A DNA stretch of 64,000 nucleotides, from contig JAVCCL010000032.1 of assembly GCA_030765505.1 (NCBI GenBank), positions 34,807-98,806 of the forward strand, given 5' to 3'. This document shows, one piece after another, positions 4,201 to 58,095 of this stretch. The notes beneath the pieces were generated by a model. That model was not told where the DNA came from and made no database searches. It worked only from the letters and a program-made list of their open reading frames with translations. Position numbers and translations under genes: made by a program. Position 1 is the first letter of the stretch, and each line of letters starts with the position of its first letter. This DNA is from Candidatus Kaelpia imicola (GTDB lineage: Bacteria > Omnitrophota > Gorgyraeia > Kaelpiales > Kaelpiaceae).

Positions 4201-5800
4201 GGCAGAGATCGAGGTAAACCTTGCAGAGTTTGGATATAGCTCTGAACAGGTAGATGAATTTTTTGCTATAGAAGATGCATGTCGGTTGGAATCGGAAAGT
4301 GTTTTGCAGCTTCTTAAAGAAGTATATGGAGATGATATTGAACAAATTATGATTACTGCTTTTGAAGATTCTATAAAAGGAACTCCGATGCAAGCATTGA
4401 TAGATAGTGAGGAGTATAGAGAATTTAAAGAAGAGGTTGGATTGATGGGGGTGATAACAAGTGATCCTGAAATAGCTAAAATAGTTTTAAATCGGCTATT
4501 GTTATATTACGATGATTATGAAGATATTGATTTAGATGAATTAATAACAGATTTTAATTCTATTGCAAGTAGAAATTCTGATGTAATAAAAGATTATTTA
4601 GACGTTGTATTAATTGGTACAGAAGATTTCAACGACTGGACCGATAAAGAAATAAGAAGTGCATTATCTTGTGCGTATTTAAAGACAAGAAGAGGGGAAG
4701 AGAGCGCAGACGATGCTTATGAACGGAGAGCAGATTTATTTAGCGCTTGGATGGAAGCAAATAGAGATGTAGGTTATCCTGCTTTTGGAGTAGCTCCGAC
4801 TCAGGATATAATGATTGCTCCTTATTCTGATCGTATGAACTGGGCTCAATTTGCAGGTTGGTCTTTAACGGGTTTAAGTGCTGCTTTTCTTGTTGCTTCG
4901 GGCATAGGTGCAATTTCTGCAGTTACTCTTCCTGTATGGTTAACTCCAATAGTTGCAAATGCAGGTCTTGCGAAAGTTGCTGCTTTTACTGTTGCAGGAA
5001 CATTGTTAACTGGAGTAATGACTGGATCATGGGCGCAAGCCCCATATGGAGGTATTCAGGGTTTTCTTCTAGGGATAACTTATCAAATTTTGCCTAGCGT
5101 TATAAGTGGAACATTAAGATTAGGACGTCCCTTGCTTGCAAAAATACTGGGAAGTACTGTTAGAGCGTCCAATTTCCTTTTGGAATCTGCTAGCCAAAGA
5201 GCGCTTCTAATACCTCTTATAAAGACAGCTACTGGAACAGCTTTTAAAGGACATAAAGTATTGACTTTAGCAGAACGTTTTGGTTGGTTTATTGGTAGTT
5301 ACAAGTTTATTTCTCAGCCTATAGCGGAAGGAGTGGCGAATATTGCTATGAGGAGAAAAGGTTTGGATCCTCAAGATTCTCAGAATCTTTGGATTCATGA
5401 ATTGGCTAATATAGGGGCATTATTAATTATGCCGTTATTTATACCTGGGTCTTGGGCGATGAATACAAGTGTTATATATAGCGGTGGCGAATATCAAGCA
5501 ATCAGACCGTTTACAACAGCTAATAACGTATCTCATTATATTGGAAATTGGACGACGCGGGGCAGTTTTCGTAGCTATGGTAGTTCTCAATTATCGGGGG
5601 CTATTGCTATGCCTTTGGGAGTACAAAGATTGCTTGAAGAATTAGATCAAGATGTAACAGGGATAGAGCTAGGGGTTGCATTAGATAGTTATGGTGTGGA
5701 AAATGAGGAATGGCGAGCAACTTTAAATACCGATTTTGATTCTTGGAAGATGGTATATGAAATTTTATCTGAACTAGGGGTGCTTGAAGATGGAGAATAA
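1226..5800 (+). CDS. giant membrane-anchored acidic protein (1524 aa), N-terminal TM/signal, C-terminal Gly/Ala-rich hydrophobic module
   Basis: Uninterrupted 4.6-kb ORF with RBS AAGGAG 9 nt upstream. N-terminal hydrophobic helix (VLSIIFLEFFLLSQIGWASV), a long D/E-rich region, and a C-terminal ~200-aa Gly/Ala-rich multi-helix hydrophobic segment (GWSLTGLSAAFLVASGIGAISAVTLPVWL...). Its stop overlaps the start of the next giant gene. No recognisable catalytic motif. Confidence 0.75.
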   Translation: MRQIKRKASFKVLSIIFLEFFLLSQIGWASVSQEMLSSYDPGFTASCPINTNSSFSINIPLEYEDSTFFASSESTLEEINGFTIIQSDSSNNIQLINQYFYVEIVIADSVPPLQGVEDIRNYLENPVGVQEILLERINVDEEKDVFCYSFKDVINSENLAIERIELDESSGQVSVEGGIVIDYLEVSCELDNGELNYPDTVNSISSVENFIQIVGTTYMEENYPELASQLNFFMHFVLNSYFNNATGSWPKSISSLEVSFPGNDYIISYDNQHMSINSLEEDSTDMDVTINSVVEISRGLNLPAEYTLSFSKDSEALQSLSHKITYFPESALENPWESIEIRDCQTQKLLYKAERELSEDGLQILSFSETQYDSNEEIVSQRKTERLDDGSSRYVLADKWNKIIIYYDVTEKIRREEHYVMNPAEGEYQLDYMKNVSDVNSWQNASDEVFQHYFYIVGNVWSFSDQNLGLGDITLSQRIDQVLISAVASSETGEGIYYNMLDIGGYHGEYSSSIYQRLYEYRACLTSDGSDLKALFGQELQRYLPLRQIETADGLVDVWGIVAFESDKIDLDKANIRDAILNTSLESKVMDLYDMIMEENGSWFTQLTSEQKRDVFRKFLEPLKIDEEGLISAVFESVDTEYETFVEIFDRYFMKEVDIPKYDESDFADKFLYILGGAKSSDSLNSFVDTICSYQSNIQAFPGDIRIEEFYMGKDNFYNDRELAFVDVYQETAGEERRLLQRWAGANIYKFTEWDQEGSPIACELDGEFISFPHEDILKAGSPGDWEEMNQAPNSLFPMIPKVPEWMCHGKVGLTLIKKRYATDGLNVAATPDFESFRPVEFGDTFNESYFTQDEFLSRDPEILKTFLNLNTVTRGLIEKFNISISELEGKPLSVVFYEINQTIADRLGFSNEMREEQLEHLSVVRREYYLREVLGITEESKIAACLYESNEVIAEVFRMESIGYSEEQIQGFLAIDESLDGIASELVYMSRAEIEVNLAEFGYSSEQVDEFFAIEDACRLESESVLQLLKEVYGDDIEQIMITAFEDSIKGTPMQALIDSEEYREFKEEVGLMGVITSDPEIAKIVLNRLLLYYDDYEDIDLDELITDFNSIASRNSDVIKDYLDVVLIGTEDFNDWTDKEIRSALSCAYLKTRRGEESADDAYERRADLFSAWMEANRDVGYPAFGVAPTQDIMIAPYSDRMNWAQFAGWSLTGLSAAFLVASGIGAISAVTLPVWLTPIVANAGLAKVAAFTVAGTLLTGVMTGSWAQAPYGGIQGFLLGITYQILPSVISGTLRLGRPLLAKILGSTVRASNFLLESASQRALLIPLIKTATGTAFKGHKVLTLAERFGWFIGSYKFISQPIAEGVANIAMRRKGLDPQDSQNLWIHELANIGALLIMPLFIPGSWAMNTSVIYSGGEYQAIRPFTTANNVSHYIGNWTTRGSFRSYGSSQLSGAIAMPLGVQRLLEELDQDVTGIELGVALDSYGVENEEWRATLNTDFDSWKMVYEILSELGVLEDGE

Positions 5801-8800
5801 AGGCCAAAAAAAATATTCTAAAAATAAATACTTTGCAAAAGTATTTAAGGATTGGTCTTTACAAGATTTTATAAAGAAGATAATACTTGTTTTAATTAGT
5901 GAGATATTTCTTGTAACACAGTTATGTTATGGAATAGAAATAACTACCGAACCAGATCAGCTTCCTCCTTTTTTCGGGGATGCTACTGACTTTGCTTTTC
6001 CACTCGATGAAACAAGTCTTTTCCCAGTTAGTCAGACTATTTCAGGTGCACCAAGCCAAGTAGGTACTCTTATATTTGATGCCGGCGATAATCAAATTGT
6101 GCCGGTTAATGTTGAAGAAATAACAGATGGAACATATCAGATTACTCTTCCTTTTGGTTCGGAAGAAGATCCTGTTTTTAACAATTTTCTTGTATCTGGA
6201 TATGAAGTTTATGAAAACGGATGGATACATGCTGATTCCTTGGCTTTAGTAGAAGAGGGTTCTTCATATATAACATATCGCAATTTAGACATGAAACCTG
6301 GTGAGTCTGGAGACGGAGAGAGTAGTGGTTTTATTATCTGGAATGCAGAATTTGAAGTCATTGACGGTACATTCGGGGTTATTGAAGAGGGTGAACTTAC
6401 ACAGTTTAGTTCTTATCAAACAAAGATACTTAAAAAAACAATGTTTAACAGCTATGATCCAGATGGACAAAGATATTTTGAGGGTGACAGAACTGATGAT
6501 GGCGGGCTTATTACAAGCCCTGAAGATTTCAGTGGGATATTTACTGATGATTTCAGGGAAAGCTATTTTAAATATCAGCGTGATTTGCTGAGAGGTCATA
6601 TTGATCCCAGTTTATTTGGTGAAATAGAACCGATTGCGTTTCGGATAAATTATGACGACCAGAAAGATCAGTATGATTTTGAAGCAAATATTAATATTAA
6701 TATTTATTCAATGCTTGCTTATTCTGGTTTTGTTTCTTTTAGTTCTGAATCAAATTTAAATAACATAACCTCTACGGCTATAATAATAAATGAAGAAGTT
6801 GATACAGGATTAGATGAAGAAGCTACTGCAATAATAGATGAAGAAGGAGGGGCAGTTTTAAGCGATGAAATAGAATATTTAAATTTTGGTGCTGGCCTTA
6901 AAGTGGAAGAAAGGTGGGGCATGGTCAATACTTTTACGACGCTTTTAAATAAAAATCTTATTGATGAGGACGGGAACGTTAAAATAAGAGTTAAAGTAGG
7001 TGATGGAACAGAGGGTGTAGAGTTTAGTGTTCCTTTTGTTTACTTGTTAGGAGATGTCCCTCCACCAAAAGAATACTCTCGACCCTCATATAGTGTTATA
7101 GACGATAAATATGACGACCTTACATATTTAATAATGCAGGATATTTGGGATGCGCTTAGATATGACATTATAAGAAAAGAACAAGATATGCAGGAACTAG
7201 ACGATATAATCCATTTACCTGGGTATCTTAAAGACTTAGCTTATTGGCATTTTAGGTATGATGAGACAGGTGATGAGACAGGTGAGGTAAAGAAAGGTTA
7301 TTATCTAGGTGATTTTGGAAGTGTTAGATTTGATGAGAATAGTTCCGAAGTTGTTTTTAATCTTGATTTTACTGAAGAAGAAAAAGAAGCGTGGTTGGGT
7401 TGGGTTTCTCCTGATTTGTATTTTTATGATCGAGACCCGAGTAAATTAACAGCGGCTTTAAATGAATATATTGGAGCAGCATTAGATCTCCCAGAAAAAC
7501 CTCAAGGTGTTATTGCAACGATTGAGCAGGTGCGGGAACAGGCTCTGAATGGAGAATATTATACGATTATTCTTGGCGAAAGATTAGATGATGTTACGAC
7601 TACCTTAGAGAGTTTTACAGTCGATGAGTTATATGAAAATAAAGAGGATTTATATTTTAAAAATCCATTCAGACAGCATGCCTTAAAATATCTACTGGAT
7701 AATGATTTGATAGATACATTAGGAAATGTTGCGGTATCTATTAATATTGACCAGAGTTCTCCTCAAGATGTAGTAGAAATAGTGCTTCCATATCAATACT
7801 TTATTTTATTTGCAGATCCATTACGAGAATCTCTTCCATTAGAATGGAGAGATGATGGAGGATCTCATGACGAAGCTTGTGATGTTTTTTATGATATTCT
7901 AGCAAATGTATCCGGGCGATTAGGTGCTAGAGGGAGAGTAGATATTGATTATGAAAGCAAAAGTTTAATTTATACAGGAAATGAAATAGAGTCTATTATA
8001 TCAACCCCAGAGATGGAACTTGAAATTGGTAGTCTTGTTGTAATATTAGCTGAGAGAGTCACTGTAGATAAAATGAATGATATAGAAATAATTCATAAGC
8101 TTCCAGAAGATGTCGAGTTAGATATGAATGCTATGTTTTTAGACTTAGCTAATGGAATGCTTGACGACCATAGCGTAGAAGAAGATGGTGAACTTGTAGA
8201 AGTTAAAGGACTAAATTCATTGCTTTATGATTTGGATGTTTTAATCGAAGAGGGTGATTGGTCAGAGACAGCTGTAGTAATCGATAAAATATCAGCCATT
8301 AGTCTAGATTTTAAAGAGAAGATGGAGTATATACGGGTCTGTGATTACTACGTTGATCGCTTAACATATATCCATGGAGGGAGTCGGAATGCAAAAATAT
8401 TATGGTGTATAAATATTTCACCCAACTCAGATGGAATAGAAAGCGATATTTATCCATTCATTGAAACACTGCAAAAGTTCTCCCAAGGTAATTGGGCAGA
8501 GGGCATGGAGATCTATAATAACCATGCTCAAGAGTATGACGATAGTCGTCACTTTATAACAGGTTTATTTGGTGAGCTTGATACTGAGATCTCAAGTCAG
8601 ATGAAGAAAGTAGCTGTTCGTGTAGGAATAGCTCGTGCGGCAACCTTTGTCATTTTAAGTATTGCATCTGCAAAACTGGGATTTCTTGCAGGTCGATTCT
8701 TAGGCGCTTGGTCTAAGACCCTTCCATTTATACAGAAGATTCAGGCGTCAACAAGTATCGGTGCACAGATGGCAAAAGGTACTTGGGCAGGATTTAAGGC

Positions 8801-11800
8801 GGTTACCAGGATTTTAGGTGTCTATGTAGATAATGCGACTGAAGCAGCACTAATGTGGCAGTCGTTGCTGCCATTTATGGGTAAAGCCGGTAGGATGCTG
8901 GGGAGTTTAAGTCCGAATTTATTTGGTATGGCGTTACGTTATGGAGTTAACGCTTCTATAGTAGGTACAGGTGCAGCAATGGGTTATCTAAAACCAGGGA
9001 GGAATTTATGGTCTTTCATGAATAATCCTGTTGGATTCTTAATCCCTGCGTCTGAACGTCTAGGTAATTTAGGAGATGTTTTTGAATTTATATCTGTTGC
9101 ATTGGATGGATTTAACTTTGCAAGGACTGGAAGATGGCCTACAAGATCTCCTATGCTAGATTTTTGTCGTAAATATGAGATCCATGTCCCACTTATTACA
9201 CAGATTCAAGAAAAGATAGAAGGCTTTAAAACAGAAGTAGCTTTGCAAAATGTGCTGAATAAATTTAAGACGGCTCGGGCAACTATACATCAGGCAAATA
9301 TAGTTTTTAGCGCAGGACTTTTTGCCGGCTTAGATGTAACTGCTCTAGAAGTGGAATCTTCTTCTACTTCAAGTAGCGTTGAGAGTCAGAGTGAATCAGA
9401 CGAAGAGCCCACTGCACAGTTTGTGTATTTTGCTGATTTAGAGAAGTTTCCGAATGAGGAGAGTTTTCTTGATTATATAAAAGGTTTTAAAGTACGAGTT
9501 AGTGGTGAAGTCAGAAACTTCTGGGATGTGTTATATGAAAAGAATGTTGACCAAAGTAAGACATTAACAGAAGCAGGATTTTTAAAACTTAAATATGAAT
9601 TGATTGGATTAACAGTAGAAGAATTACAAAGATTTCAGGAACTGAAAGGAGACGAAGCCGAAGAATTAATAAGTGCTGGAAATATGCCATTCTTTACTCA
9701 ATTTTACCGTGCTTTATCTGAAAATTTGAATAATCTAACAGATAGGACAGATGTTTCTTTAGCTCAGGCGTTGGCTAAAGTCTATACGGTTATGCACAAT
9801 ACCCTTAGCGTAGGAACAGGCATCCCTTTAAATCTAACATTCCCGCAACTGCTTGCAGCATACTTTGTATGTGAGGGATACAATGTAAGAAAAACTGATA
9901 CAGGTAAAATACGTTCAATTATAGATAAAGTCTTTAATGTATCTACAGGTGAAGGCAAAACCTATATAGAACCTGCAGCTGCAGCAGCGCTTGCATTGAT
10001 GAGGAAAGACGGGGAAAAAGCATTTGATACGGTGCTTATTGCATTCTCTTCTAATATTCTTTGTAAAAGAGATTTCGAGGGTAAAACTGATAACGACAGA
10101 GGTGTTAATATCGATATGCAGGAGTTTTATAGCGCCTTGGGCTTAAGAGTAGCCCATTTAGAGGAACCCCGTGATAATACAGTTAAATCATTTGTAGATT
10201 ACAAACGTAATTTACTAGAAAGGTTGAGAGGGCAGCATAAGCCAGACATTGTTTATGCACCTATTTCAAATATAATATTTCACATTGCTTATAAACTGGC
10301 TGATGAGGATTATTCAGAATTTGATAATTTAGACCGAGTAGCTGTAATTCTTGATGAAGTTGATGCTACTGCCTTAGAACAAGCACAGAGTCCATTTATA
10401 ATAAGCAGGGGTGGCGCAGAAACATACCGCGTTGGTACGCCAGAGGGAGATTTCTTTGAAGCTGTAGGTAGATATATTCGCGGATTGGATTTATTCGGCA
10501 AGTTTGGCTTGTGGGAATCATCACCTGAGGTAGATATTGATGCTTTGAAACAGGAAATCCAAGAATCTAGGGATATTAGCGATGAGGATAGAGAAAATCT
10601 GATAGAAGAATTAAGTGCAGGGAATAGTCCTTTGCAGGTATATCGTGACTGGAAGTTAAAAGTATCGTCTGAGTTAAGAGAGCAGATTCCAGAGATATTA
10701 GCTGACAATATTGCAGATTTAAATTACTCTGGCTTAATTGAGGCGCTGGGATCAGCCGAGAGTATAATACAAAATTATAAAGATAAGTACATTATAGAGT
10801 TTGAAAATGGTGTTCCAAGAGTAATTATTGTAAGTGAATTTAGTCACGAAGCACAGCCAGGTAAAAAATGGCAGAATTGGATACACCAAATGATAGAATC
10901 TTATGTAGAAGGGGTTCCTGTGAGTACGACTAGCTATACTTCAGGTTCAGTTATTATGTATGAAATACTTGCAAAAATGGGTTATGTTGTAGGGCTTTCA
11001 GGCACTGTGGATGTATTTCAAAAAGTTTGGCAAGATCTTCTTAATGCCGCAGTTATGACTTTTCCTGAAGCTTTAAATGATTTAGAGCAGTTTCGAAAGA
11101 CAACTCCTGTATATGGTTATACAAATTATGATCGTAGTCAACAGGATATGATTGGAAGCCTTATAGAGCATGCTATGCACGGCGAATCTGTTGTATTGGC
11201 AACATTAAAATATGAACAGAAGTGTGATGCTGTTTTGACATATTTTAGAGATCAGGGTGCCCAAATAGAAGAAGAAGCTATAGAGGAAACAGAGGGTAAG
11301 ATACGCTATAAGGTAACTTTGTCTACGGGAGATGTTCTGTATGTACAGAAATATGGAGCTCGGGAAGATTTAGACCCAGTGTTAAAAGGTATGATTGAAC
11401 AATTAGCAGGAGAAATGGGATTAATTACAATTGGTTCTCCGATTTTTGGTAGGGGAATTGACATTGATACATCACAAAGAATTTCTGAAGATTCTACTGA
11501 TAATAACGCGATATCTAAAAATGAATTGATTCAGGAAGTACTGGAGAATACATTAAGTGGTCAAGCTGTTGTATTTGCTTCAGAAAAGCATGAGGATGCA
11601 CTGAATGAATTCCTATCTTATTTAGCATTAGATGATATAGAAGCTGAGTCTGTAGAAGGCTTAGAAGGTGCTAGAAAAATTAGAATAGAGTATGAAGGTA
11701 AAGAAGTAGTATTGTTTAGTTACGGCACTAAAGAAGGTGATTTATCCCCAGAGGTAAAAGCAAAAATTCAAGCAGAGATAGACCAAGCTAATGAAATTAA

Positions 11801-12992
11801 TGGAGAGGGAGGGAGATTTATTATTTTCTGTTCACCAAATATTGGACAAGAGTTTAATGTTGGCGACTCAGATCAAGTATTGTATGAAATGAAAGGAGAG
11901 TGGGGTTCAATATATCGCAATCTTCATGTTGTTGCTGATGGATTAATGGCATTATGGCTTACACAGCAGATTATTGGAAGAGCAAAACGTGGAGGGCGAC
12001 CAGGGACTGCTGCAGTATTTTTCTCTACCGATTTTGTCAATGATCCAATTTGGCAGCAATATCAAAAATTGTTCATAGCTCATCCGGAATGGTGGGAAAC
12101 AATTGAATCAAGTGTTGTAAGATTGTCTGATTCAATTGGTGACGCAAGGATGAATGAATTTAGTTTTTTAGATGCACGTATTCAAGAAATTCAAGGTATT
12201 CATGTTCAATCAGTTCTTGGAACTTTGATGAATGTGATGGAGCAATACAAACCACTATATGAATTTCAGGTTGATTTTATACGGGGATTGGGTGAAAGAA
12301 TTAATGGCAATCTAACCCAAGAACAACAGCAGAAAATTCAGGAAATTCAGGAAATTCAAGAATCTAAGAATTTTACTGCCGAAGATAAAGAAGATTTAAT
12401 AGGGCAAATACATGCAAGGAATAATCCACATCAAGTGTTTAAAGAATTTAGAATATTTGAAACGCTAGGTGGAATAACAGTCGATAACTTAAAAGGCTGG
12501 ATTCAAAATGACTCTCTCTATTGTAGCGAAGAAACAAAAATTCAATTAATACAAACTTTAGAAAATGAGGATAATTTAATTTCTCCGCAACTGGTTTATT
12601 TAAGGTGGAGAATCTTGGATTCACCGCTATTATCAATAAATCAAAAATCCAACATTGAAGAGCTGTATACATTATTTGCAAACTCTGCAAGAAGTATTGG
12701 AAACAATAATTTGCCGGAGATTATTAATCAGTGTTTAGATGATGTAGGAAATGGAGACTTAAAAGCAATAATGTTAAAATATCTTACTCCTTCGGATCCT
12801 AATTCGCAAAATTCTCAAAGAGAGACAGCAACGAGTAGAGTTGTTCCTACATATAAATCAATGGTGTTGAATAATTTTGGTGGCGAACAAGCTGCTGTTC
12901 ATTATGGAATTAAGAGTGATTTTAATGACTGGCTCTTAGAAGAAGCAGCTGATATATATGAAATTTTAGTTATTTTGGATTTGGTGAACTGA
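5784..12992 (+). CDS. giant multidomain protein (2402 aa) with embedded SecA-like DEAD-box translocase motor
   Basis: 7.2-kb ORF; TTG at 5784 or, more likely, ATG at 5790 overlaps the upstream stop. It has an N-terminal TM helix ([17 protein letters not shown]), a ~900-aa acidic region, a central Gly-rich hydrophobic module ([28 protein letters not shown]...) and a poly-Ser/acidic linker. A SecA-like core follows. Its NBD1 motifs are STGEGKTY (Walker A), [17 protein letters not shown] and [26 protein letters not shown] (Walker B/DEVD). NBD2 matches are LSGTVD (compare MTGTAA), [11 protein letters not shown] (compare NMAGRGTDI) and [18 protein letters not shown] (compare [18 protein letters not shown]). 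Each was aligned by eye to the genuine SecA at 51090-53963. Confidence 0.8.
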   Translation: [2402 protein letters not shown]

Positions 12993-29012: not shown

Positions 29013-29318
29013 TTGTCTGTTGTCTCATCTGGCAAATTTCAGGATATTTCGCTGAATTGTTTCAGAAGAGTAAGAGTGGGCGGTAATATTAATTTTTATC
29101 AAACAGTCCAAGATATCTTGATGGATTTAGAAGAAAGGATTACACATGTGGACAAGGTAATTGTATTTGATGAACTTCGCTGTGGGCCTCATGGCAGTAT
29201 TTCCTGGAAGAGATTGCGAAATATGTTTACTGATGAAAATAGAGTGATATCTGTAACTGATGTACCTGTGGATGAGAATGGAATTATTAACTATAGTACG
29301 AACAGCATTTTGGGGTAA
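29013..29318 (+). CDS. hypothetical protein (weak coding evidence)
   Basis: ORF only; no motif recognised. Confidence 0.25.
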   Translation: MSVVSSGKFQDISLNCFRRVRVGGNINFYQTVQDILMDLEERITHVDKVIVFDELRCGPHGSISWKRLRNMFTDENRVISVTDVPVDENGIINYSTNSILG

Positions 29319-29380
29319 CGCTTCTCGGTCAATTTCGAATACGTCTGGGTGAAAAATATGCTAATAAAAAGGCAACGGTA

Positions 29381-29782
29381 TTGTTTTCTAAGGATAAAGA
29401 TAATAGTATGACAGCGTTGCGAGTTGAAATAGATGGTGAAGTTATTATTAATGAGGCGATGGTTTCATATCTTGTGAACAAAAATGGAGTCGAGCTTTGT
29501 GCTCCATCGTGTAACAATAATGTATTTGGGGTAGAACCTTTTCAGGATTACTTTTACTTTAGGTCTATAAGTCCGGAAGGTGATAATGCGGAGTATAATA
29601 CGTTGTATATTGTAAATCAGCGCCTTTCTCCTAAAGGGGGATTCATTCTTTTCAGCAAAACTCAAGAGACAATACTTTCAGATGAATTTGCCAAATCTCC
29701 TGTGTATTGTTTTTATGGTTTTTTACAAGAAGGTAAGGCGTTAAGCTACTCTCTAGAATTAGTTGAAGGCCCTGAGTTGTAA
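29381..29782 (+). CDS. hypothetical protein (weak coding evidence)
   Basis: ORF only; no motif recognised. Confidence 0.25.
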   Translation: MFSKDKDNSMTALRVEIDGEVIINEAMVSYLVNKNGVELCAPSCNNNVFGVEPFQDYFYFRSISPEGDNAEYNTLYIVNQRLSPKGGFILFSKTQETILSDEFAKSPVYCFYGFLQEGKALSYSLELVEGPEL

Positions 29783-29854: not shown

Positions 29855-29946
29855 GGAGAGGTGTGAGAGCGGCCGAATCAAAACGACTGGAAATCGTTTG
29901 ACCTAAGAAATTAGGTCCCTGGGTTCAAATCCCAGCCTCTCCGCCA
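29855..29946 (+). tRNA. tRNA-Ser (anticodon GGA), type II with long variable arm, CCA encoded
   Basis: Acceptor GGAGAGG pairs with CCTCTCC. Anticodon stem AACGA/TCGTT with loop CTGGAAA (anticodon GGA, U33, A37). Long variable arm GACCTAAgaaaTTAGGTC. T-arm GGGTTCAAATCCC. 3' end CCGCCA. Confidence 0.8.
29928..29946 (+). repeat. att-like 19-bp core (tRNA-Ser 3' end), copy 1 of 3
   Basis: AATCCCAGCCTCTCCGCCA recurs at 31515-31533 (exact) and 32738-32754 (variant ...CCGCTA). Confidence 0.8.
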
Positions 29947-30024
29947 TTAATCCTTCCTAAATCTATATTCTTCCTTAGTTTGTATTCGATATATCTATAT
30001 GGTATAAATATATAAAAGGGTGGC

Positions 30025-31314
30025 TTGGTAGATAAAATGAAGAGAATTTCAATTATTAAAATTGTTTTAATATTTTTAGCGTTTGGTCTATTTATTCCAA
30101 ATATTTCTTTTGCTAGAAGAACTAAGAATGCAGATAATATAGCAGTTTCTTTGCATCAAATACTTGTAGGAATTGGATATGAGCAAGAAGCAGGTGAAAT
30201 CAATGCTTTAATATTAGAAATTTTCCCTGATTTTGGGGATCTTAAAGCCTTATCTCCTCAGGCAAAGATTGTAGCTTTAGCTGATATAATAAAACAAAAT
30301 ATATCTGCACATAGCTGGAGTGAAGGAGAAGATTTATTATATTTTGAATTATCAGACGTGCTTAATAGTAGAAAATCCATTTGCTTTGGTTATGCCGAGC
30401 TTTTTTACGTTTTAGGTAAAACGCTAGGGCTAGATGTGGAGGTAATTCCAATTTATCCAGGACACGGAGCCAATCTGATTAAATTAGATAGTGGTCATGT
30501 GGTTTTAGATTTAGCTAATGAGTTAGTTTCTAATTATTATCAGAGTCAGGTTTTTAACTGGGATGAAAATTATCAAAGAGAAGGAAGTATATGGTGTTTA
30601 AAAGAAGGGAGTAATTTGCCTCAAATATATAAAATTGTTCAAAGGGTAAACGAGCAGGGGATAATTGAAGGTAGATACTATAATCGTGGTTGGATGTTAG
30701 AACAGGCGGGACGCACTAATGAGGCAGTCGAGTGTTATGGTAGAGCAACGGGAGTGGCTCAAGCTTGGAGCAACATTGGTTTAATTTTATCTAATCAAGG
30801 GCAATACAATGAGGCAATTCGATATTTTGACAGAGCGATAGAGTTAAACCCATATTTAGCCGAGACTTTTTACAATCGCGCTTCTACTAAAATTGTTCTA
30901 GGATTACACAGTGAGGCAGTTGATGATTGCGATATAGCGATAGGTTTTAATTCAAACCTAGCCCAAGCGTGGTTTAATCGCGGGACTGCTTTGGCCTTTC
31001 TAAAGCAATATGATGAAGCAAAAGAAAGTTTTAGAGAAGCAATAAAATTAACACCAGATCCATCAATTTTATCGGAAGCTTTTTATAATCTTGGTCTGGT
31101 TCATATTAACTTAGGGATCATTAATAAAGCGCTTGAATATTTTACATATTCAGCTCAACATAACCAAAATAATGCTGAGGCATGGTTTCATGTTGGATAT
31201 TGCAAATTCCAATTAGGACAATCACAGGAAGGAATTGAAGCTGTCAGAAAAGCGATTAAACTAGACCCTAGCATGAAGGATCGTCTTCCGCCTGAAGTTC
31301 AAAGATTACTATAA
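30025..31314 (+). CDS. secreted transglutaminase-like cysteine peptidase-fold protein with C-terminal TPR repeats, FARR leader
   Basis: Leader MKRISIIKIVLIFLAFGLFIPNISFA|RR. Cys-His-Asp arrangement CFGYAELFYVLGKTLGLDVEVIPIYPGHGANLIKLDSGHVVLDLAN (transglutaminase-like core). At least 5 TPR units (AWSNIGLILSNQGQYNEAIRYFDRAIELNP...). Confidence 0.65.
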   Translation: MVDKMKRISIIKIVLIFLAFGLFIPNISFARRTKNADNIAVSLHQILVGIGYEQEAGEINALILEIFPDFGDLKALSPQAKIVALADIIKQNISAHSWSEGEDLLYFELSDVLNSRKSICFGYAELFYVLGKTLGLDVEVIPIYPGHGANLIKLDSGHVVLDLANELVSNYYQSQVFNWDENYQREGSIWCLKEGSNLPQIYKIVQRVNEQGIIEGRYYNRGWMLEQAGRTNEAVECYGRATGVAQAWSNIGLILSNQGQYNEAIRYFDRAIELNPYLAETFYNRASTKIVLGLHSEAVDDCDIAIGFNSNLAQAWFNRGTALAFLKQYDEAKESFREAIKLTPDPSILSEAFYNLGLVHINLGIINKALEYFTYSAQHNQNNAEAWFHVGYCKFQLGQSQEGIEAVRKAIKLDPSMKDRLPPEVQRLL

Positions 31315-31360
31315 GTAAAAATAAGTGAATTTATCTAAAAACAATTTTCTCTTGGTAAAA

Positions 31361-31533
31361 TACTCTTGTGCCCAAACTGTGCCCATCTTACATCAAAACA
31401 AACGTATGCAAACGTAGGCAAACGTAACCATTCGCACTCGATAAGTCCTTCATAAAGCAGTGGTTTATAACATATATGTTGATATATAAGGAGTTAAGGG
31501 ATTTAATCTAATAGAATCCCAGCCTCTCCGCCA
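31361..31533 (+). repeat. ~170-bp island repeat unit R ending in tRNA-Ser 3' core (copy A)
   Basis: gtgcccaaactgtgcccatcttacatc...aaacgtatgcaaacgtaggcaaacgtaacc...aaggagttaagggatttaatctaatagAATCCCAGCCTCTCCGCCA. Near-identical copy at 32588-32756, partial copy at ~34335-34400. Confidence 0.75.
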
Positions 31534-31622
31534 TTAATCCTTCCTAAATCTATATTACCCCTCAATTTGTATCGTATATATCTATATGGTATAAATATAT
31601 AAAAGGATGGCTTGGGCATAAA

Positions 31623-32528
31623 ATGAAGAGAATTTCAATTATTAGAATTATTTTGATATTTTTAGCGCTTGGTCTATTTATTCCAAATATTTCTTTTGCC
31701 AGAAGGGTGAGGGAAGTATTAACTCAAGTTGATAATTTTGGGACAGTTACTTATTATGAAAGTTATAATGGTAATTTTCGTCCATTAAAAATAGTTGATA
31801 AATTAGGTCATGTTTTAGATGAATATTATTATAGAGGTTCTGAATTAGATAGAGTTATAACAACAAATTTAGAGACAGGAGAAAAGTTAGAATTACGAAT
31901 AAAAAAAGTAGAAGGTAGGCCTGGATTACAAGCTGATATATACATTGAACAAAAATATGTGGGATTTCGAGAGTGGGAAATTAATGAAGGATGGATAATA
32001 TTGGGAGATATTACTATAGATGAAGGGATGCGCAAAAATGGTATTGGCTTAACGGTTTCAAATTGGATTGTTGCTTACTCAAATATGGTTGAAGGTGTTA
32101 CCAAAGCAACCACATTGTCTCAAAATCCTCTGATAATTTCTATTATGCAGCGTGTCACTAAGTTAGAGACAGTTAGTTATGCTCAAGCTGCTCTTTTGGG
32201 TATTAGAAGTCTAGGAACCAATTTAAGCAATACAGATCTTATTAAAAGTATAGAGTCTTTTTCTATTGGCAATGCTGACAATCTAAGGTTTGGTGTTGAT
32301 ATGTATAGGGTGATATTTGATGATAGCAAAGTTTTTTCTTCAAATTATCCATCGTTGCCAGTAGGAACAGAATTGGATAATTTTGAAGTTCTTGGTGATT
32401 GGATAGTTAAGTTGGATGGAGTTGTTATAGGCCAGATTAAATCTTTTTGTTCCTTTCTGTGTTTAGGTGGAGAGATAAATCCAATTCACGTTTTCATAGA
32501 CGAAGAAGGTAAAGTGGTTCAGTATTAA
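31623..32528 (+). CDS. secreted hypothetical protein, leader paralogous to 30025 gene, unrelated mature domain
   Basis: The first ~28 codons and ~110 bp upstream are nearly identical at nucleotide level to the 30025 gene (MKRISIIRIILIFLALGLFIPNISFARR). The rest has no similarity. Confidence 0.65.
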   Translation: MKRISIIRIILIFLALGLFIPNISFARRVREVLTQVDNFGTVTYYESYNGNFRPLKIVDKLGHVLDEYYYRGSELDRVITTNLETGEKLELRIKKVEGRPGLQADIYIEQKYVGFREWEINEGWIILGDITIDEGMRKNGIGLTVSNWIVAYSNMVEGVTKATTLSQNPLIISIMQRVTKLETVSYAQAALLGIRSLGTNLSNTDLIKSIESFSIGNADNLRFGVDMYRVIFDDSKVFSSNYPSLPVGTELDNFEVLGDWIVKLDGVVIGQIKSFCSFLCLGGEINPIHVFIDEEGKVVQY

Positions 32529-32587
32529 ATAGATTAAATTGTCAATTGATAGCTCTGCAATATGAACGATAATAGAGAGTTTTATTT

Positions 32588-32756
32588 CTGTGCCCAAACT
32601 GTGCCCATCTTACATCGAAACATCCGTAGGCAAACGTAAGCAAACGTAACAATCCGCACTCAGTAAATCCTTTACAAATAAGAGGTTTATAGTATAGTTT
32701 ATTGATGTATAAGGAGTTAAGGGATTTAGCCTAACAGAATCCCAGCCTCTCCGCTA
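32588..32756 (+). repeat. island repeat unit R (copy B) ending in variant att core
   Basis: Same architecture as 31361-31533: gtgcccaaactgtgcccatcttacatcgaaacatccgtaggcaaacgtaagcaaacgtaac...cagAATCCCAGCCTCTCCGCta. Confidence 0.75.
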
Positions 32757-32807
32757 GTTAATTTTGGCTTCAAATTAGAAGTTCCACCTCTTTTAGTAAT
32801 GTAGAAT

Positions 32808-33806
32808 ATGTTTAAAAGAATACTTAAAACAGTTTACTGTAATGCATCTTTAAGCCAAAAACGAAAATTTATAAAATGTTACAAATATTTTAAGAAAGGG
32901 TGGATTATAAAAAATATTCTTTCTTCATTAGTTAGACGTTTCTTTATAATACGCAAAATTAAAAATTTTGCTCTCTTCGAACAAATGTTTTATTCCCAAA
33001 ATGGAGAGGATGGCATAATAAAAGCAATATTTGGTAAAATAGGATCAACTAATAAATTTTGTGTAGAGTTTGGCATTCATCCAATGGAGGGTAATACCAT
33101 TTACCTACAAAAAAAAGGGTGGAATTGTTTATGGATGGATTAAAATGGTGATGGAAAAGTTATTAGAAAAGAATATATAACTGTAGAGAATATTAATCAG
33201 TTATTAGTAAATTACAATGTTCCTAAAGAATTTGACTTGCTTTCTATCGATATAGATTTCAATGATTATTGGATTTGGAAGGCAATCAGGGGATACTCCC
33301 CAAGAGTTGTAGTTATTGAATATAATTCCTCTATTCCTCCAGCAGAAAGTAAGACTATAGAGTATGATCAAAATGCCCATTGGGATGGCACTAATTATTT
33401 TGGAGCGAGTTTATTAGCATTAACAAAACTTAGTAAATCAAAAGGGTATACTTTAGTGGCATGTGATAAAAAAGGAACCAACGCTTTTTTTGTAAAAACT
33501 GATTTGATTAAGAATAATTTCAAAGTTAAAGAAGTTAAAAAGATTTACAACCCACCCAAATATGGCAAAAAAGTCAATGGCAAATACATTGGGCACCCTC
33601 CAAGTAATAAATCAATGAGTTCTATTTTAATTAGTATTTCTTATGCTGCCTCTCTGTATCATGCTGTGTCTACGACTTTGTTTTCGACATTTTTGCAGGC
33701 TCCATCCAAAAATTACTTCACTTTATTCCGCAAAATTTGTTTAATCATATGCGTTAAAAAGAATTTATTGCTCAGTTTGATGAAATCAAACAATCTCGTA
33801 GAATAG
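32808..33806 (+). pseudogene. disrupted gene: single reading frame interrupted by in-frame TAA (33141-33143); weak FkbM-methyltransferase-like C-terminal half
   Basis: ORFs 32808-33143 and 33237-33806 are in the same frame. Translation runs through ...KGWNCLWMD*NGDGKVIRKEYITVENINQLLVNYNVPKEFDLLSIDIDFNDYWIWKAIRGYSPRVVVIEYN... with only one stop. Confidence 0.5.
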
Positions 33807-34451
33807 GATTAAAAAAGCTTTAAATCGTCAGAAACAATAGACCGATAGGTAATAACTGACGTGCGGAGATTTTAGTCACTACTATTGTGTCTTACCTTTA
33901 CTTTTTTGTATAGTATACGATATCTAAACGGTAAGAGAGTGTTTATAGATAATGTGAGAAAATTACTCATTTTAGCATTTGTTATGCTTTTATTATAATA
34001 AAGATAGCCTTGTAAGTATTTCTTGCAGGACGAGAAAGCGTTAAGCGATACAAATTTTCTAAAATGATAATTTGTTTTCGGGTATTACTGTTCCATCCAT
34101 TCTTTTGAATCAAAGGATCTAAATGTAGCGGAGAGAAGAAGAGAATTAATAAGTCTCTTTGATAATTGTTTAAATAAAGAAGAGATAGATTTTCTAATTA
34201 CAGGTTCTATAAAATCAATTATGTTAGCTTCTCGCTAATAAGCCATATCCCTCAGTTAGTCAAGCTGTACCTATATTAGGTATACTACCTTAGGATATTT
34301 TTATAATTTAATCTTATATGCATATATCCAGTAGACTCTTTACAAAGAAATATTTCATAGTATAGTTTATTAATGCGTATATGTTGTGGGTGTTAATCAA
34401 ATAGTTATTATTGGTATTGATTGTATGGAGGTAATTGTTTAAAGAATTATT

Positions 34452-35237
34452 ATGAAGAGTAATTTTAAATATATCTATGGTCCGGTCTCTTCCTGGAGAT
34501 TGGGTTCTTCTTTGGGTATTGACCCTATATCGGGAGAGAATAAAATATGCAGCTTTGACTGCGTATATTGTCAAATAAAAGAGCTGAGTCTATTAAGCAT
34601 GGAGAGAAAGATTTTTGTAGAGACTGAATTGATTGTTAATGAACTTCAGGCTCTACCTTCAGGTTTAGATATTGACTACGTTACTCTCTCAGGTAGGGGC
34701 GAGCCTACTCTGGCTTTAAACATTAAGGATATAACTATCGCTGCAAAGAGTATCTTAGGTCATCCAGTTGCTCTTCTTACTAACTCTACTATGCTTTTAA
34801 GAGAAGATGTTAGAGATGATATTTTAGATATTGATTTTGTAATAGCCAAGGTAGATGCTTGTAGCGATGAACATTTAAGGGTTATCAACAGGCCTCATGA
34901 AGATTTAGATTTTTTAAGCATATTAGATGGAATTAAGAAGTTCAAAGCTAATTATAAAGGAAAATTTGGAATCCAGATTATGTTTTTAGAGTCAAATAAA
35001 TTTGAGGCAGAAGGTATTGCAAGAATTGCATCAGAATTAAATCCAGATGAAGTGCAGCTTAATACTCCCTTGCGTGATTCTAAAGTCAAAGCTCTTTCGA
35101 AAGACGATATGGATAAAATAAAGGATTGCTTTAAGGGTTTCAATGCTATTTCGGTTTATGATAGAGAGAAGAAAAAAGTAGAATCAATAAGTAAAAAAGA
35201 TACAATGAGAAGAAGGGGAAAGGATTATGATAATTGA
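34452..35237 (+). CDS. radical SAM domain protein
   Basis: YGPVSSWRLGSSLGIDPISGENKICSFDCVYCQ contains the CxxxCxxC radical-SAM cluster motif in the conserved GPVxSRRLGxSLGI...C context. Lies directly upstream of feoAB. Confidence 0.8.
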   Translation: MKSNFKYIYGPVSSWRLGSSLGIDPISGENKICSFDCVYCQIKELSLLSMERKIFVETELIVNELQALPSGLDIDYVTLSGRGEPTLALNIKDITIAAKSILGHPVALLTNSTMLLREDVRDDILDIDFVIAKVDACSDEHLRVINRPHEDLDFLSILDGIKKFKANYKGKFGIQIMFLESNKFEAEGIARIASELNPDEVQLNTPLRDSKVKALSKDDMDKIKDCFKGFNAISVYDREKKKVESISKKDTMRRRGKDYDN

Positions 35238-56681: not shown

Positions 56682-58082
56682 TTGAAATCGGTAATTACAT
56701 ATGGTACAAATACTATATATTGCTTAATAAAATATAAGGGGGATGAAATTATAGCAATCGTAAAAAAATGTTTACTTAGTGTATGTGTGATAGTTTTTTT
56801 GCTTAATCTTCACTCATTTTTTATATCTAAAGAAATTTCCAATTCATCTGTATCGCAAAATTCCGCTTATAGAAGATGTAGATATTTTTCTAATTATCCA
56901 AGAGAACAAATAATTGGTATTACGATCCGGAAAAAAGAAGCTCTGCTGTGGAATTATAGAAACGGTAATGTGCCAGCTGATTTATATGAGATAATTGGCA
57001 GAAACCTTGACGTAATTATTAATGGAGGCATTGAACAGATTTATAATTATTTTCCAATAAATCGTATTAATAATAATGTTGCTGAACATATTAATGTTTC
57101 ATTTTGTAATATGTTACTAAACATTGTGTTGCAAAATGAGCCTGATTTAAATGGAAATCAACGTAGCGCTTTATATGGAAATATTGATAGCTATCTAATG
57201 ACTCCGGAAATAAAAATTGCTCAACTTACAGAAGGAGAAAAGACTCTTTCCTCTTCACATATTGTAGCGAAACCCTGGGGAATGGAAGTCTGGATTGCGG
57301 AAAATGATCTTTTCGGGATAAAAGCCATATATATAATGCAAGGAGAACATGAGTCTGTTCAGTGGCATATGAAAAAAACTGAATCTCAGTTGTATTTTGG
57401 ACATGGAGAGATTTTGCATTTGCTTCTAGATGAGTTTGGAAATTTAAGAGAAAAAGTAGGATTATTCCATGAGTCTGACATGGAAGAGGTATCGTCTTTT
57501 TTTGATAGTTTACCTTTTGTGAATATTGGCGGTGAAAATTTGACTATTCGAAATATACCTGTGGGTACTGTGCATACTTCAAGACCTACTCAGGGACTTA
57601 TTATGCACTTGGAATTTAATTCAGGGGAAGAAGCTGCAGCTCCAACTGTGACTACTAGATTATTAGATAAATACACAGATAGCGAAAGGACTATTAAAGA
57701 AGCTCAAAGATTAAATATAAATTGGTGGGGCCCGAGGCTTCCTGTTGCATTAGGAGACGATGTAGCAAGAGTTGAATTTTCTGATGCGGGAAGAGAAATA
57801 CAGGAAAGTATAATTACTGAAGATGATGGTGTAGTGAGAATAGAGACTACGCCCAACTATGTGATTGATCAAATCACTTTTTCTAATGGAGAAAGTAGAA
57901 ATATTGGAGGACGTACACGTACATCGGAAGTAGTACTTGTATTAAATGGAATATTGAATGTAATCAAAGAAGGTCAACACTATTCATTGTTTCCTGGAGA
58001 GGTTTTAGAAATAGAGAAGGGAGAAAGTATTACTTTAACATCTTATGATAAGTGTAAAATTATACATACTTACGCACCATGA
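56682..58082 (+). CDS. bicupin protein, mannose-6-phosphate isomerase type II-like cupins; N-terminal hydrophobic segment; start uncertain
   Basis: VAKPWGMEVWIAENDLFGIKAIYIMQGEHESVQWHMKKTESQLYFGHGEIL carries the KPWG...H...H cupin motif. A second cupin-like block is at the C-terminus. The track's TTG start lies inside the promoter-like repeat, so the real start is probably near 56760. Confidence 0.45.
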   Translation: MKSVITYGTNTIYCLIKYKGDEIIAIVKKCLLSVCVIVFLLNLHSFFISKEISNSSVSQNSAYRRCRYFSNYPREQIIGITIRKKEALLWNYRNGNVPADLYEIIGRNLDVIINGGIEQIYNYFPINRINNNVAEHINVSFCNMLLNIVLQNEPDLNGNQRSALYGNIDSYLMTPEIKIAQLTEGEKTLSSSHIVAKPWGMEVWIAENDLFGIKAIYIMQGEHESVQWHMKKTESQLYFGHGEILHLLLDEFGNLREKVGLFHESDMEEVSSFFDSLPFVNIGGENLTIRNIPVGTVHTSRPTQGLIMHLEFNSGEEAAAPTVTTRLLDKYTDSERTIKEAQRLNINWWGPRLPVALGDDVARVEFSDAGREIQESIITEDDGVVRIETTPNYVIDQITFSNGESRNIGGRTRTSEVVLVLNGILNVIKEGQHYSLFPGEVLEIEKGESITLTSYDKCKIIHTYAP

Positions 58083-58095
58083 GGTTTATATTCAG

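What the first reader, a model, noticed from the sequence alone, without database searches (positions are those of the whole stretch)
29855..32760. tRNA-Ser(GGA) integration hotspot: 19-bp tRNA 3' core repeated three times, delimiting two tandem mini-cassettes
AATCCCAGCCTCTCCGCCA (the tRNA 3' end, 29928-46) recurs exactly at 31515-33 and as a variant at 32738-54. Each copy is immediately followed by an almost identical ~180-bp block (extended -10 promoter, RBS, 28-codon leader MKRISII(K/R)I(V/I)LIFLA(F/L)GLFIPNISFARR), then completely different mature-protein sequence (transglutaminase-like/TPR vs unknown). Each cassette ends with a ~170-bp repeat R whose 3' end mimics the tRNA. This looks like attL/attR-style serial site-specific integration, or cassette exchange at a tRNA. 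Yet the units are only 1.2-1.6 kb and no integrase lies within 25 kb (the nearest recombinase is the IS481 transposase at 60 kb).
Basis: seen in the sequence. Interest (0 to 1): 0.7.

Follow-up and report, generated by a model that had tools for sequence, protein, structure and literature searches.

The report
Integrase-less gene cassettes at tRNA-Ser
Downstream of the tRNA-Ser(GGA) gene of an uncultivated Antarctic-lake bacterium (Candidatus Kaelpia imicola, Omnitrophota) lie three small, mostly single-gene inserts, each ending in a conserved ~165-bp attachment-site arm plus a copy of the tRNA's last 17-19 bases, and because related genomes carry different inserts at the same spot this looks like a site-specific gene-capture hotspot whose recombinase is encoded elsewhere.

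Summary
The tRNA 3' core AATCCCAGCCTCTCCGC occurs three times (0.01 expected). The promoter-plus-signal-peptide block B and the ~165-bp block R each occur twice. The array is longer than reported: a third, decayed unit (32755-34404) ends in half an R that abuts the conserved radical-SAM gene.

The window is Ca. Kaelpia imicola (Omnitrophota). Between the same flanking genes, K. aquatica has two different units. One metagenomic relative has three, and others have a 3.5-kb island, a serine-recombinase prophage, a helicase-bearing element, or no R at all. Two contigs are identical for 2333 nt to the right of a core and unrelated to its left.

R has the same layout as the arm found next to tRNA fragments and tyrosine-integrase genes in prophages of several phyla. 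Between orthologous cassettes R and B are 90% identical, against 73% for the cargo ORF and 77% for a housekeeping gene.

Best reading: these are non-autonomous integrative cassettes that accumulated at the tRNA by tyrosine-integrase recombination supplied in trans. The window encodes no such recombinase, and none was identified in any relative. I class this as a new variant of a known kind (CIME- or tycheposon-like accretion with integron-like cassettes).

The parts
29855..29946 (+). tRNA-Ser(GGA), the attachment target. Its last 19 nt (29928-29946) form core copy 1, the attL-type junction.
   Evidence: ARAGORN; Rfam tRNA, 49 bits; core search.
29947..30120 (+). Block B1: the element-side sequence right after the core. 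It holds an extended -10-like TGgTATAAAT, a putative RBS, and the 28-codon signal peptide MKRISIIKIVLIFLAFGLFIPNISFARR.
   Evidence: 91-94% identical to B2 and to B of L037. The promoter and RBS are read from the sequence only.
30037..31314 (+). Cassette 1 cargo: a secreted protein of 425 aa. It has a weak transglutaminase-like N-terminal domain followed by TPR repeats.
   Evidence: ORF list; Pfam TPR_1 E=3e-45; Transglut_core only 18.5-20 bits, below the cut-off.
31351..31514 (+). R1, the P-arm-like block. In order it contains GTGCCCAaacTGTGCCCA (31368-31385), three tandem 10-bp repeats (ACGTAnGCAA), CATTCGCACTC, a promoter-like element, and TTGATATATAAGGAGTT.
   Evidence: 85.5% identical to R2, 90-92% to the K. 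aquatica R and to L037 RA; motif search.
31515..31533 (+). Core copy 2 (19/19), the junction between cassettes 1 and 2.
31534..31706 (+). Block B2: promoter, RBS and signal peptide of cassette 2.
   Evidence: 90% identical to B of the orthologous cassette in L037, while the cargo ORF is only 73%.
31623..32528 (+). Cassette 2 cargo: a secreted protein of 301 aa with unknown function.
   Evidence: No Pfam or NCBIfam hit. Homologs at 61% (L037-L039) and 54% (Ca. Saelkia, next to tRNA-Ser(CGA)). The AF2 model is poor, pLDDT 53.
32586..32737 (+). R2, the P-arm-like block of cassette 2. It contains an outward-facing promoter-like TTTACA-16-TATAGT at 32671-32698.
   Evidence: 90% identical to the R of the orthologous cassette in L037.
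32738..32754 (+). Core copy 3 (17 of 19; ..CGCta), slightly decayed.
32755..34404 (+). Third, decayed unit. A 332-codon ORF (32808-33806) is interrupted by one in-frame TAA at 33141. An AT-rich spacer follows, then a degenerate 3' half of R (34329-34404) with no core.
   Evidence: ORFs and translation; no family match; R remnant scores 59 against 27.5 +/- 3.9 for shuffles. K. aquatica has a full-length decayed R at the equivalent place.
34438..35237 (+). Conserved chromosomal right flank. The radical-SAM gene (34452-35237) is followed by feoA and feoB. This marks the end of the variable region.
   Evidence: 85.5% nt synteny with K. aquatica starting at 34438. The same gene order occurs in L062. 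Pfam Radical_SAM.

Best explanation
The tRNA-Ser(GGA) 3' end is an attachment site at which small, non-autonomous integrative elements (cassettes) have piled up in tandem.

Each cassette has three parts:
- the cargo, usually one gene with its own promoter;
- R, a ~165-bp arm built like the P arm of a phage-type attP, containing the paired GTGCCCA motif, three 10-bp direct repeats and conserved boxes;
- a 17-19-bp copy of the tRNA 3' end, where crossover happens.

A circular cassette would carry one composite site, R-core-(B or another P' sequence). Recombination of that site with the tRNA core gives tRNA-core-cargo-R-core. This restores an intact tRNA and leaves a second core, so the next cassette can enter the same way. 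The result is tRNA|C1|C2|C3|chromosome, with older units decaying further from the tRNA.

The enzyme is most likely a tyrosine integrase with an arm-binding domain, encoded by an autonomous element of the same family elsewhere in the genome or population and acting in trans.

What is shown: the anatomy; the variability of the locus between relatives; a breakpoint exactly at the core; the resemblance of R to arms of integrase-bearing elements; and stronger conservation of R and B than of coding sequence.

What is inferred: the type and source of the recombinase; the circular intermediate; excision of single cassettes; the direction of array growth; and outward transcription from R.
For: 1. Repeat anatomy. 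Three cores against 0.01 expected, and two R motifs against 0 expected. The similarity between tRNA and R begins exactly at the core.

2. Same locus, different content.
- K. aquatica (CCA gene 86% nt identity): tRNA | repeat-protein cassette | R + 19/19 core | serine-recombinase remnant + Fic gene | decayed R | the same radical-SAM gene.
- L037: tRNA | membrane-protein cassette | cassette-2 ortholog | RibD_C cassette, with three 19/19 cores.
- L005/L064: a 3.5-kb two-gene island plus R and a decayed core.
- L062: no R at all.

3. Breakpoint at the core. L037 and L038 are 2333/2333 identical to the right of a core and 28% identical to its left. L039 begins at the second base of the core. L058, from the same sample as L037, has the same tRNA and the same 26 bp upstream, but a different element downstream.

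4. The cassette-2 family lies with a decayed R next to a different isoacceptor, tRNA-Ser(CGA), in Ca. Saelkia. Similar 1.1-1.7-kb units flanked by a tRNA-Ser(TGA)-type core occur in L004 and L001.

5. The exact 20-21-nt R motif was found in 35 loci from several phyla, almost always beside a tRNA end; a looser 18-nt pattern added 8 viral contigs. In L043 the order is motif, about 150 bp, tRNA 3' half, then a Phage_integrase gene. L041 is similar. The L007 integrase carries Arm-DNA-bind_2.

6. Constraint. Between orthologous cassettes B is 90% identical, R 90% and the core 18/19. The cargo ORF is 73% and the housekeeping CCA gene 77%.

7. Decay gradient in the window: cores 19/19, 19/19, 17/19, then none, and the distal cargo is a pseudogene.
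Against: - No integrase was identified for these cassettes. The window has none, and no locus carrying an R cassette has one either (same calls).
- No circular junction or empty site was observed, because reads were not available.
- The sequence on the other side of the core (P') is not conserved across cassettes. B is present in only 4-5 of them, so the site requirements are unclear.
- Cassette 2 and its L037 ortholog have diverged about as much as the host genomes. Some cassettes may therefore be old residents rather than recently mobile.
- That the GTGCCCA motif binds an integrase arm domain is inferred from position and co-occurrence only.
Confidence: 0.65

Rival explanations
1. These are relics, not cassettes. 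Each unit is what remains of a full-size island or prophage that integrated with its own integrase and then lost everything except one gene and its distal att arm. The units never moved as 1-2-kb entities.
For: K. aquatica's second unit really does contain a ~100-155-bp remnant of a serine-recombinase gene fused to a Fic gene. Distal units are decayed. No integrase or circle was seen.
Against: At least eight independent units have the same tight format: core, promoter, one or two genes, R, core. Deletion would have to stop at the core each time. The cassette-2 family, with its R, sits at two different tRNA-Ser genes. R and B are more conserved than coding DNA, which is not expected for dead remnants.
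Confidence: 0.18
2. Exchange is by homologous recombination. The cores are old scars, and present-day turnover happens by homologous recombination of incoming DNA through the conserved B and R blocks (or the tRNA and R), which act as portable homology arms.
For: B (about 190 bp) and R (about 165 bp) are 85-94% identical between cassettes with unrelated cargo. B1 and B2 share a leader that ends exactly at the signal-peptide/mature-protein boundary, which suggests recombinational swapping of cargo.
Against: The L037/L038 breakpoint lies at the first base of the 18-19-bp core, not inside B or R. Several cassettes lack B. Homologous recombination does not explain why R copies the layout of integrase-associated att arms in other phyla.
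Confidence: 0.1
3. The recombinase is the large serine recombinase of the prophage that uses the same tRNA end, and the cassettes are its satellites.
For: In L053-L057 a 549-aa serine recombinase gene lies directly after tRNA-Ser(GGA). A remnant of this gene lies in the K. aquatica array.
Against: The phage attP (L059) shares only about 7-9 bp with the tRNA end. It has its own inverted repeats and no R. The R-core-B junction resembles attB rather than that attP. No TTGTTGACGC junction exists in the window.
Confidence: 0.04
4. The arrangement is an assembly or binning artefact created by mis-joining at repeats.
For: The window comes from a single MAG contig, and no independent assembly of K. 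imicola was available.
Against: The repeats are 85-94% identical rather than identical, so they can be assembled. The same architecture recurs in independent assemblies: L048 equals L049 over 4601 nt, plus L051/L052, L037, L038 and L039.
Confidence: 0.03

Closest known systems
CIMEs (cis-mobilizable elements) and tandem accretion of ICESt1/ICESt3-type islands in Streptococcus (reviewed in PMC5704250)
   Same: Units without an integrase are bounded by attL/attR-type sites. They lie in tandem at one attachment site and are presumed to be moved by the integrase of a related autonomous element.
   Different: CIMEs are usually several kb to tens of kb, derive from ICEs, and sit beside their helper. 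Here the units are 1.1-1.7 kb (one is 3.5 kb), usually hold one gene, sit at a tRNA-Ser 3' end in Omnitrophota, and have no identified helper.
Tycheposons and tRNA-proximal island growth in Prochlorococcus (bioRxiv 10.1101/2020.12.28.424599)
   Same: Serial integration at a tRNA. Elements are separated by partial tRNA copies. Newer elements sit next to the tRNA and remnants degenerate distally. Heterogeneity between strains is greatest near the tRNA.
   Different: Tycheposons are defined by their own recombinase plus a replication module. The Kaelpia units have neither, but they keep a long conserved att arm (R). Only element E in L058 has a replication-type gene.
Integron gene cassettes (attC x attI captured by IntI)
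   Same: Single-gene units, each with one portable recombination site at its 3' end, are stacked at a fixed chromosomal site. The recombinase is not inside the cassette.
   Different: There is no intI next to the site, and no attC-type imperfect palindrome. The cassettes carry their own promoter-like signals. The crossover sequence is a tRNA 3' end, and R looks like a lambda-type arm.
Xer-dependent modules (pdif modules, IMEX elements)
   Same: Small modules without a recombinase gene, bounded by short site-specific recombination sites.
   Different: Those use dif-like XerC/XerD sites. Here the site is a tRNA end with an arm-type layout. Xer involvement was not tested.
ssrA-targeted genomic islands of Dehalococcoides (PMC3146451)
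   Same: Tandem islands are separated by repeats of the 3' end of a small-RNA gene, and content varies between strains.
   Different: By that paper's abstract these are whole islands (for example the vcrABC vinyl-chloride reductase island) integrated at ssrA (tmRNA), not single-gene units at a tRNA-Ser; I did not read beyond the abstract.

Membership tests
tRNA-targeted integrative island (tyrosine-integrase type) | The insert is flanked by direct repeats of the tRNA 3' end, and an intact tRNA is kept at one junction. | tested here: met
   Three cores; intact tRNA-Ser by ARAGORN and Rfam.
tRNA-targeted integrative island (tyrosine-integrase type) | An integrase gene lies inside the element. 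| tested here: not met
   phmmer/hmmsearch with 8 tyrosine-integrase seeds and gamma-delta resolvase, plus Pfam on the unknown ORFs, found nothing in the 64-kb window.
tRNA-targeted integrative island (tyrosine-integrase type) | Presence and content vary between related genomes at the same site. | tested here: met
   Seven different states of the tRNA-Ser(GGA) locus.
tRNA-targeted integrative island (tyrosine-integrase type) | The att arm carries integrase arm-type binding sites. | tested here: inconclusive
   R shares the motif + direct repeats + tRNA fragment layout with L043 and L041, which have a Phage_integrase gene. Binding itself cannot be tested here.
CIME / accretion | The unit is bounded by att sites and lacks recombination and transfer genes. 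| tested here: met
CIME / accretion | A related autonomous element with the same att site is present in the same species or population. | tested here: inconclusive
   Element E (L058) and the unknown left partner X (L038) use the same core. No integrase was seen. The X peptide gives only a 3.7-bit match to the catalytic-Tyr region.
CIME / accretion | Excision or integration happens when the helper integrase is supplied. | not testable with these tools
   Needs reads or an experiment.
Integron | intI lies adjacent to the capture site. | tested here: not met
   There is no recombinase in the window. The ORFs upstream of the tRNA have no family match.
Integron | Cassettes are mostly promoterless and end in an attC imperfect palindrome. 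| tested here: not met
   B carries a promoter-like TGgTATAAAT. In R, the candidate hairpins noted by eye in the 12-copy alignment are not kept between copies; no structure tool was run.
Tycheposon | Hallmark recombinase plus a replication (primase/helicase) module. | tested here: not met
   Absent from the window cassettes. A helicase-type gene occurs only in the separate element E.
Large-serine-recombinase prophage remnant | Junction CCGCCA|TTGTTGACGC with the 3' end of the recombinase gene. | tested here: not met
   Present in L053-L057 and in K. aquatica, absent from the window.
Xer/dif module | A 28-bp dif-like XerC/XerD site at the module borders. | not tested
   The borders are tRNA 3' ends. 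No dif model was run.

The most novel reading that the evidence does not exclude
R + core is a portable recombination site, playing the role attC plays in integrons, and the tRNA-Ser 3' end is a fixed capture site, playing the role of attI. A dedicated integrase encoded elsewhere inserts, excises and reshuffles single-gene, self-promoted cassettes. This would be a tRNA-anchored gene-capture platform that diversifies the secreted and accessory proteins of Omnitrophota, and it would be mechanistically distinct from integrons because it uses an arm-type attP rather than a folded attC.
Probability: 0.3. Interest if true: 0.8.

Novelty: new variant of a known kind. Interest (0 to 1): 0.6.

Why it matters
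Omnitrophota are an uncultivated phylum, and the Ace Lake study that named these MAGs mentions no integrases or other mobile elements (PMC8542988). This locus shows a concrete route of gene gain. One tRNA-Ser gene collects promoter-equipped, mostly single-gene units, many of which encode secreted proteins. It is also used by at least two other mobile elements.

If the cassettes are mobilised in trans, they would be the tyrosine-integrase counterpart of miniature non-autonomous elements, and a functional parallel to integron cassettes. The conserved R arm gives a simple sequence tag (GTGCCCAAACTGYGCCCA, about 130 bp, then a tRNA end) for finding such units and their helpers in metagenomes.

Tried and rejected
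- Exact-protein look-ups of window genes failed three times.
- Searches of viral contigs found nothing for the 21-nt R motif, for the X-core junction, for R-end + core, or for relatives of element E's helicase. R-core-B has no match in GenBank phages.
- The 43-aa peptide at the left edge of L038 has no database homolog and no Pfam hit. Its 3.7-bit alignment to the integrase catalytic-Tyr box is kept only as a lead.
- Rfam found nothing in R or B, so I dropped the small-RNA reading.
- A micro-ORF in R (MPKLCPSY..) does not keep its stop between copies (read by eye from the copies). The reverse complement of the motif would encode integrase-tail peptides in different frames in different loci (frames worked out by eye). 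I therefore treat the motif as a DNA site, not a coding sequence.
- The hairpin or tRNA-minihelix mimicry at the 3' end of R is not kept across copies, so I did not pursue it.
- The AlphaFold model of the cassette-2 protein was too poor (pLDDT 53), so no fold search was run.
- The serine recombinase as the cassette enzyme was rejected on the attP sequence.
Full report

ARAGORN and Rfam find a single tRNA in the window, tRNA-Ser(GGA) at 29855-29946. Its 3' end AATCCCAGCCTCTCCGC recurs exactly at 31515 and 32738. Shuffled sequence gives 0.01 matches. With the CCA included, copies 1 and 2 are 19/19 and copy 3 is 17/19.

After cores 1 and 2 comes block B, which is 91-94% identical between the two copies. 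B holds a TGgTATAAAT element, a putative RBS and a 28-codon signal peptide. Similarity stops right after ..NISFARR, and the mature proteins are unrelated:
- Cassette 1 encodes TPR repeats with a weak, sub-threshold transglutaminase-like N-terminal domain.
- Cassette 2 encodes a 301-aa protein with no family match.

Before cores 2 and 3 lies block R, which is 85.5% identical between copies. No other R or B copy exists in the 64 kb, with one exception. Positions 34329-34404 align to the 3' half of R2 right up to the base before the core (score 59; shuffles 27.5 +/- 3.9).

**2. Where the array ends**

The window is Candidatus Kaelpia imicola, an Omnitrophota MAG from Ace Lake, Antarctica (PMC8542988).

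The orthologous region of Ca. K. aquatica is L048. It is identical to the independent ENA contig L049 over 4601 nt, and it is also covered by the JGI contigs L051 and L052. It is syntenic with the window on the left up to the tRNA. On the right, synteny resumes at the radical-SAM/feoAB genes, at window position 34438.

In K. aquatica a full-length but decayed R, with a decayed core, abuts that right flank. The window's half-R sits at the same place. The window array is therefore tRNA | C1 (1587 bp) | C2 (1223 bp) | C3 (about 1.67 kb) | chromosome. C3 contains a 332-codon ORF broken by one in-frame TAA, and half an R with no core. Core quality falls with distance from the tRNA: 19/19, 19/19, 17/19, none.

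**3. The locus in relatives**

The test fails, because every lineage differs.

| Lineage | Content downstream of tRNA-Ser(GGA) |
|---|---|
| K. aquatica | secreted repeat-protein cassette (in-frame stop) + R + 19/19 core, then a unit made of a serine-recombinase gene remnant + a Fic gene + decayed R |
| L037 (ENA contig) | membrane-protein cassette; ortholog of cassette 2 with B; RibD_C cassette; three 19/19 cores; last R decayed |
| L005/L064 | one 3.5-kb island with two genes, an R 86-90% identical to R2, and a decayed core |
| L053-L057 | a large-serine-recombinase prophage |
| L058 | an element with a cold-shock-like ORF (by eye) and a DUF3854/AAA_25 helicase-like protein |
| L062 (more distant) | same flanking genes, no R, no second core |

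Outside this locus:
- In Ca. Saelkia a cassette-2 homolog with a decayed R sits after tRNA-Ser(CGA).
- In L004 a 1.07-kb unit with R is flanked by an 18-nt core and sits next to tRNA-Ser(TGA). In L001 a related 1.73-kb unit is flanked by the same core type but has no intact tRNA beside it.

**4. Evidence that recombination happens at the core**

L037 and L038 come from two samples. To the right of a core they are 2333/2333 identical. To its left they are unrelated (28% identity), and the switch occurs at the first core base. L039 starts at the second core base. L058 comes from the same sample as L037. It shares the tRNA and the 26 bp upstream with L037, but diverges right after CCGCCAT. These are the junction patterns expected from site-specific exchange, not from homologous exchange.

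**5. What R is**

An alignment of 12 copies shows an ordered set of modules:
1. TGTGCCCAAACTGYGCCCATCTTACATCAAAACA
2. three 10-bp direct repeats, which are replaced by other repeats in some cassettes
3. CATTCGCACTC
4. a TTTACA-16-TATAGT promoter-like element facing outward
5. TTGATATATAAGGAGTT
6. the core, which changes with the tRNA-Ser that is targeted

Scanning public collections for the 20-21-nt motif gave 8 genomic and 27 metagenomic loci from Acidobacteriota, Proteobacteria, Omnitrophota and other groups. A looser 18-nt pattern found 8 viral contigs. The motif sits in one of two positions:
- about 150-190 nt upstream of the T-loop of a tRNA 3' fragment (about 130 nt before the core in the window's R), often with short direct repeats in between, as in R;
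- about 36-107 nt downstream of a tRNA T-loop signature (about 15-60 nt after the tRNA end where one can be read), where it often overlaps the 3' end of a tyrosine-integrase gene.

In the viral contig L043 the order is motif, tRNA-Leu 3' half, then a Phage_integrase gene that starts 10 bp after the CCA. L041 is similar. The L007 integrase has an Arm-DNA-bind_2 domain. The reverse complement of the motif would be translated in different frames in different integrases (frames worked out by eye), so what is conserved is the DNA site.

R is thus built like the P arm of a tyrosine-integrase attP. In the Kaelpia units, cargo occupies the position where autonomous relatives carry int.

**6. Constraint on R and B**

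For the orthologous pair C2 (window) and CB (L037), identity is as follows:

| Segment | nt identity |
|---|---|
| B | 90% |
| spacer between stop codon and R | 88% |
| R | 90% |
| core | 18/19 |
| mature cargo ORF | 73% |
| housekeeping CCA-enzyme gene | 77% |

The tRNA-proximal R copies of three lineages (R1, the K. aquatica R, and L037 RA) are 90-92% identical although their cargo is unrelated. So the flanks are either functional or exchanged. They are not decaying scars.

**7. The missing recombinase**

No tyrosine or serine recombinase is detectable in the window. The ORF at 60288-61346 is a DDE transposase. The loci that carry R cassettes likewise lack an integrase.

The serine-recombinase prophage uses the same tRNA end, but through a different site. 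Its attP in the 52.8-kb viral contig L059 is ..CCCGCTGAG-CCGCCA-TTGTTGACGCTCAG... It shares only about 7-9 bp with the tRNA and has no R. It is therefore an independent user of the hotspot, not the cassette enzyme.

Two leads remain. One is element E (L058). The other is the unknown 207-bp left partner X of L038. X ends in an ORF whose last residues align, at only 3.7 bits, to the catalytic-Tyr box of integrases. That is not evidence yet.

**8. Mechanism proposed**

The units are non-autonomous integrative cassettes. A circular form would carry R-core-(B or another P' sequence) and recombine with the tRNA core, which regenerates the tRNA and adds a new core. Repeating this gives a tandem array with older units distal and decaying. 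This is the same directional model described for tycheposon islands (bioRxiv 10.1101/2020.12.28.424599) and for CIME accretion (PMC5704250). The integrase acts in trans.

Shown: the anatomy, locus variability, the core-exact breakpoint, the similarity of R to other att arms, and the constraint on R and B. Inferred: the enzyme, the circles, unit excision, and promoter function.

The shared leader of C1 and C2, with unrelated mature parts, suggests that cargo can also be swapped inside a fixed B...R frame. How that happens is unknown.

**9. Comparison and novelty**

The phenomenon belongs to known kinds: tRNA-linked islands, accretion, CIMEs and tycheposon islands. Three features are unusual:
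- the miniature, mostly single-gene format;
- a long conserved att arm on every unit;
- no integrase in any unit, across several Omnitrophota lineages and three tRNA-Ser isoacceptors.

This gives a functional resemblance to integron cassettes, but none of the integron membership features is met. I class it as a new variant of a known kind and score interest at 0.6.

Noticed in passing
window 58045-60234 (and 60288-61346): A third protein with the same leader style (..NLNVAFARR). It is a 729-aa GatZ/KbaZ-like protein of the same Pfam family as the 756-aa cargo gene of the L005 island (the two were not aligned directly), and it lies next to a DDE (rve) transposase. The ending 'A-x-A-R-R' follows the hydrophobic region in most secreted cassette proteins seen here (C1, C2, the K. 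aquatica cassette, Saelkia, L005). It may be a lineage-specific signal-peptide feature.
   Followed up: partly
L053-L057, L059, L060: A family of large serine recombinases targets the extreme 3' end of tRNA-Ser genes (GGA and GCT), with the junction CTCTCCGCCA|TTGTTGACGC. The recombinase ORF reads through the core into the tRNA (..QQWRRGWDLNPGT*). L059 is a 52.8-kb viral contig with the attP.
   Followed up: partly
L001-L047 (motif GTGCCCAAACTGYGCCCA): An 18-21-nt DNA motif is conserved exactly across several phyla next to tRNA ends and integrase genes. Its reverse complement would give integrase C-terminal tails in three different frames (DGHSLGT, MGTVWAQ, WAQFGH). I did not look for, and do not know of, a published description of it as an arm-type site.
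   Followed up: partly
L004 2402-2527 (minus strand): The first 17 nt of tRNA-Ser(TGA), GGAGGGGTGGCAGAGCT, are duplicated about 110 bp upstream of the tRNA. This suggests a past event at the 5' side of the gene.
   Followed up: no
L055 7700-8500: Downstream of the serine recombinase gene lies a dense array of short repeats (..ACGTATATAC.. and ..CCGACACTTT..). It resembles iterons or operator arrays.
   Followed up: no
window 29013-29782: The two small ORFs just upstream of the tRNA (101 and 133 aa, no family) correspond to 90-aa and 220-aa ORFs in K. aquatica. The reading frames are split differently in the two species, so one version may be frameshifted.
   Followed up: no
L050 15380-16172: A 94%-identical K. 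aquatica-like contig diverges after the Fic gene into a response-regulator gene instead of R plus the radical-SAM gene. This is either a rearrangement at the distal end of the array or a strain difference.
   Followed up: partly
window 1226-12992: Two adjacent giant ORFs (1524 and 2402 aa) are followed by a subtilase (974 aa) and a weak, sub-threshold C39-peptidase-like protein. Almost all genes are on the + strand, with strongly positive GC skew.
   Followed up: no
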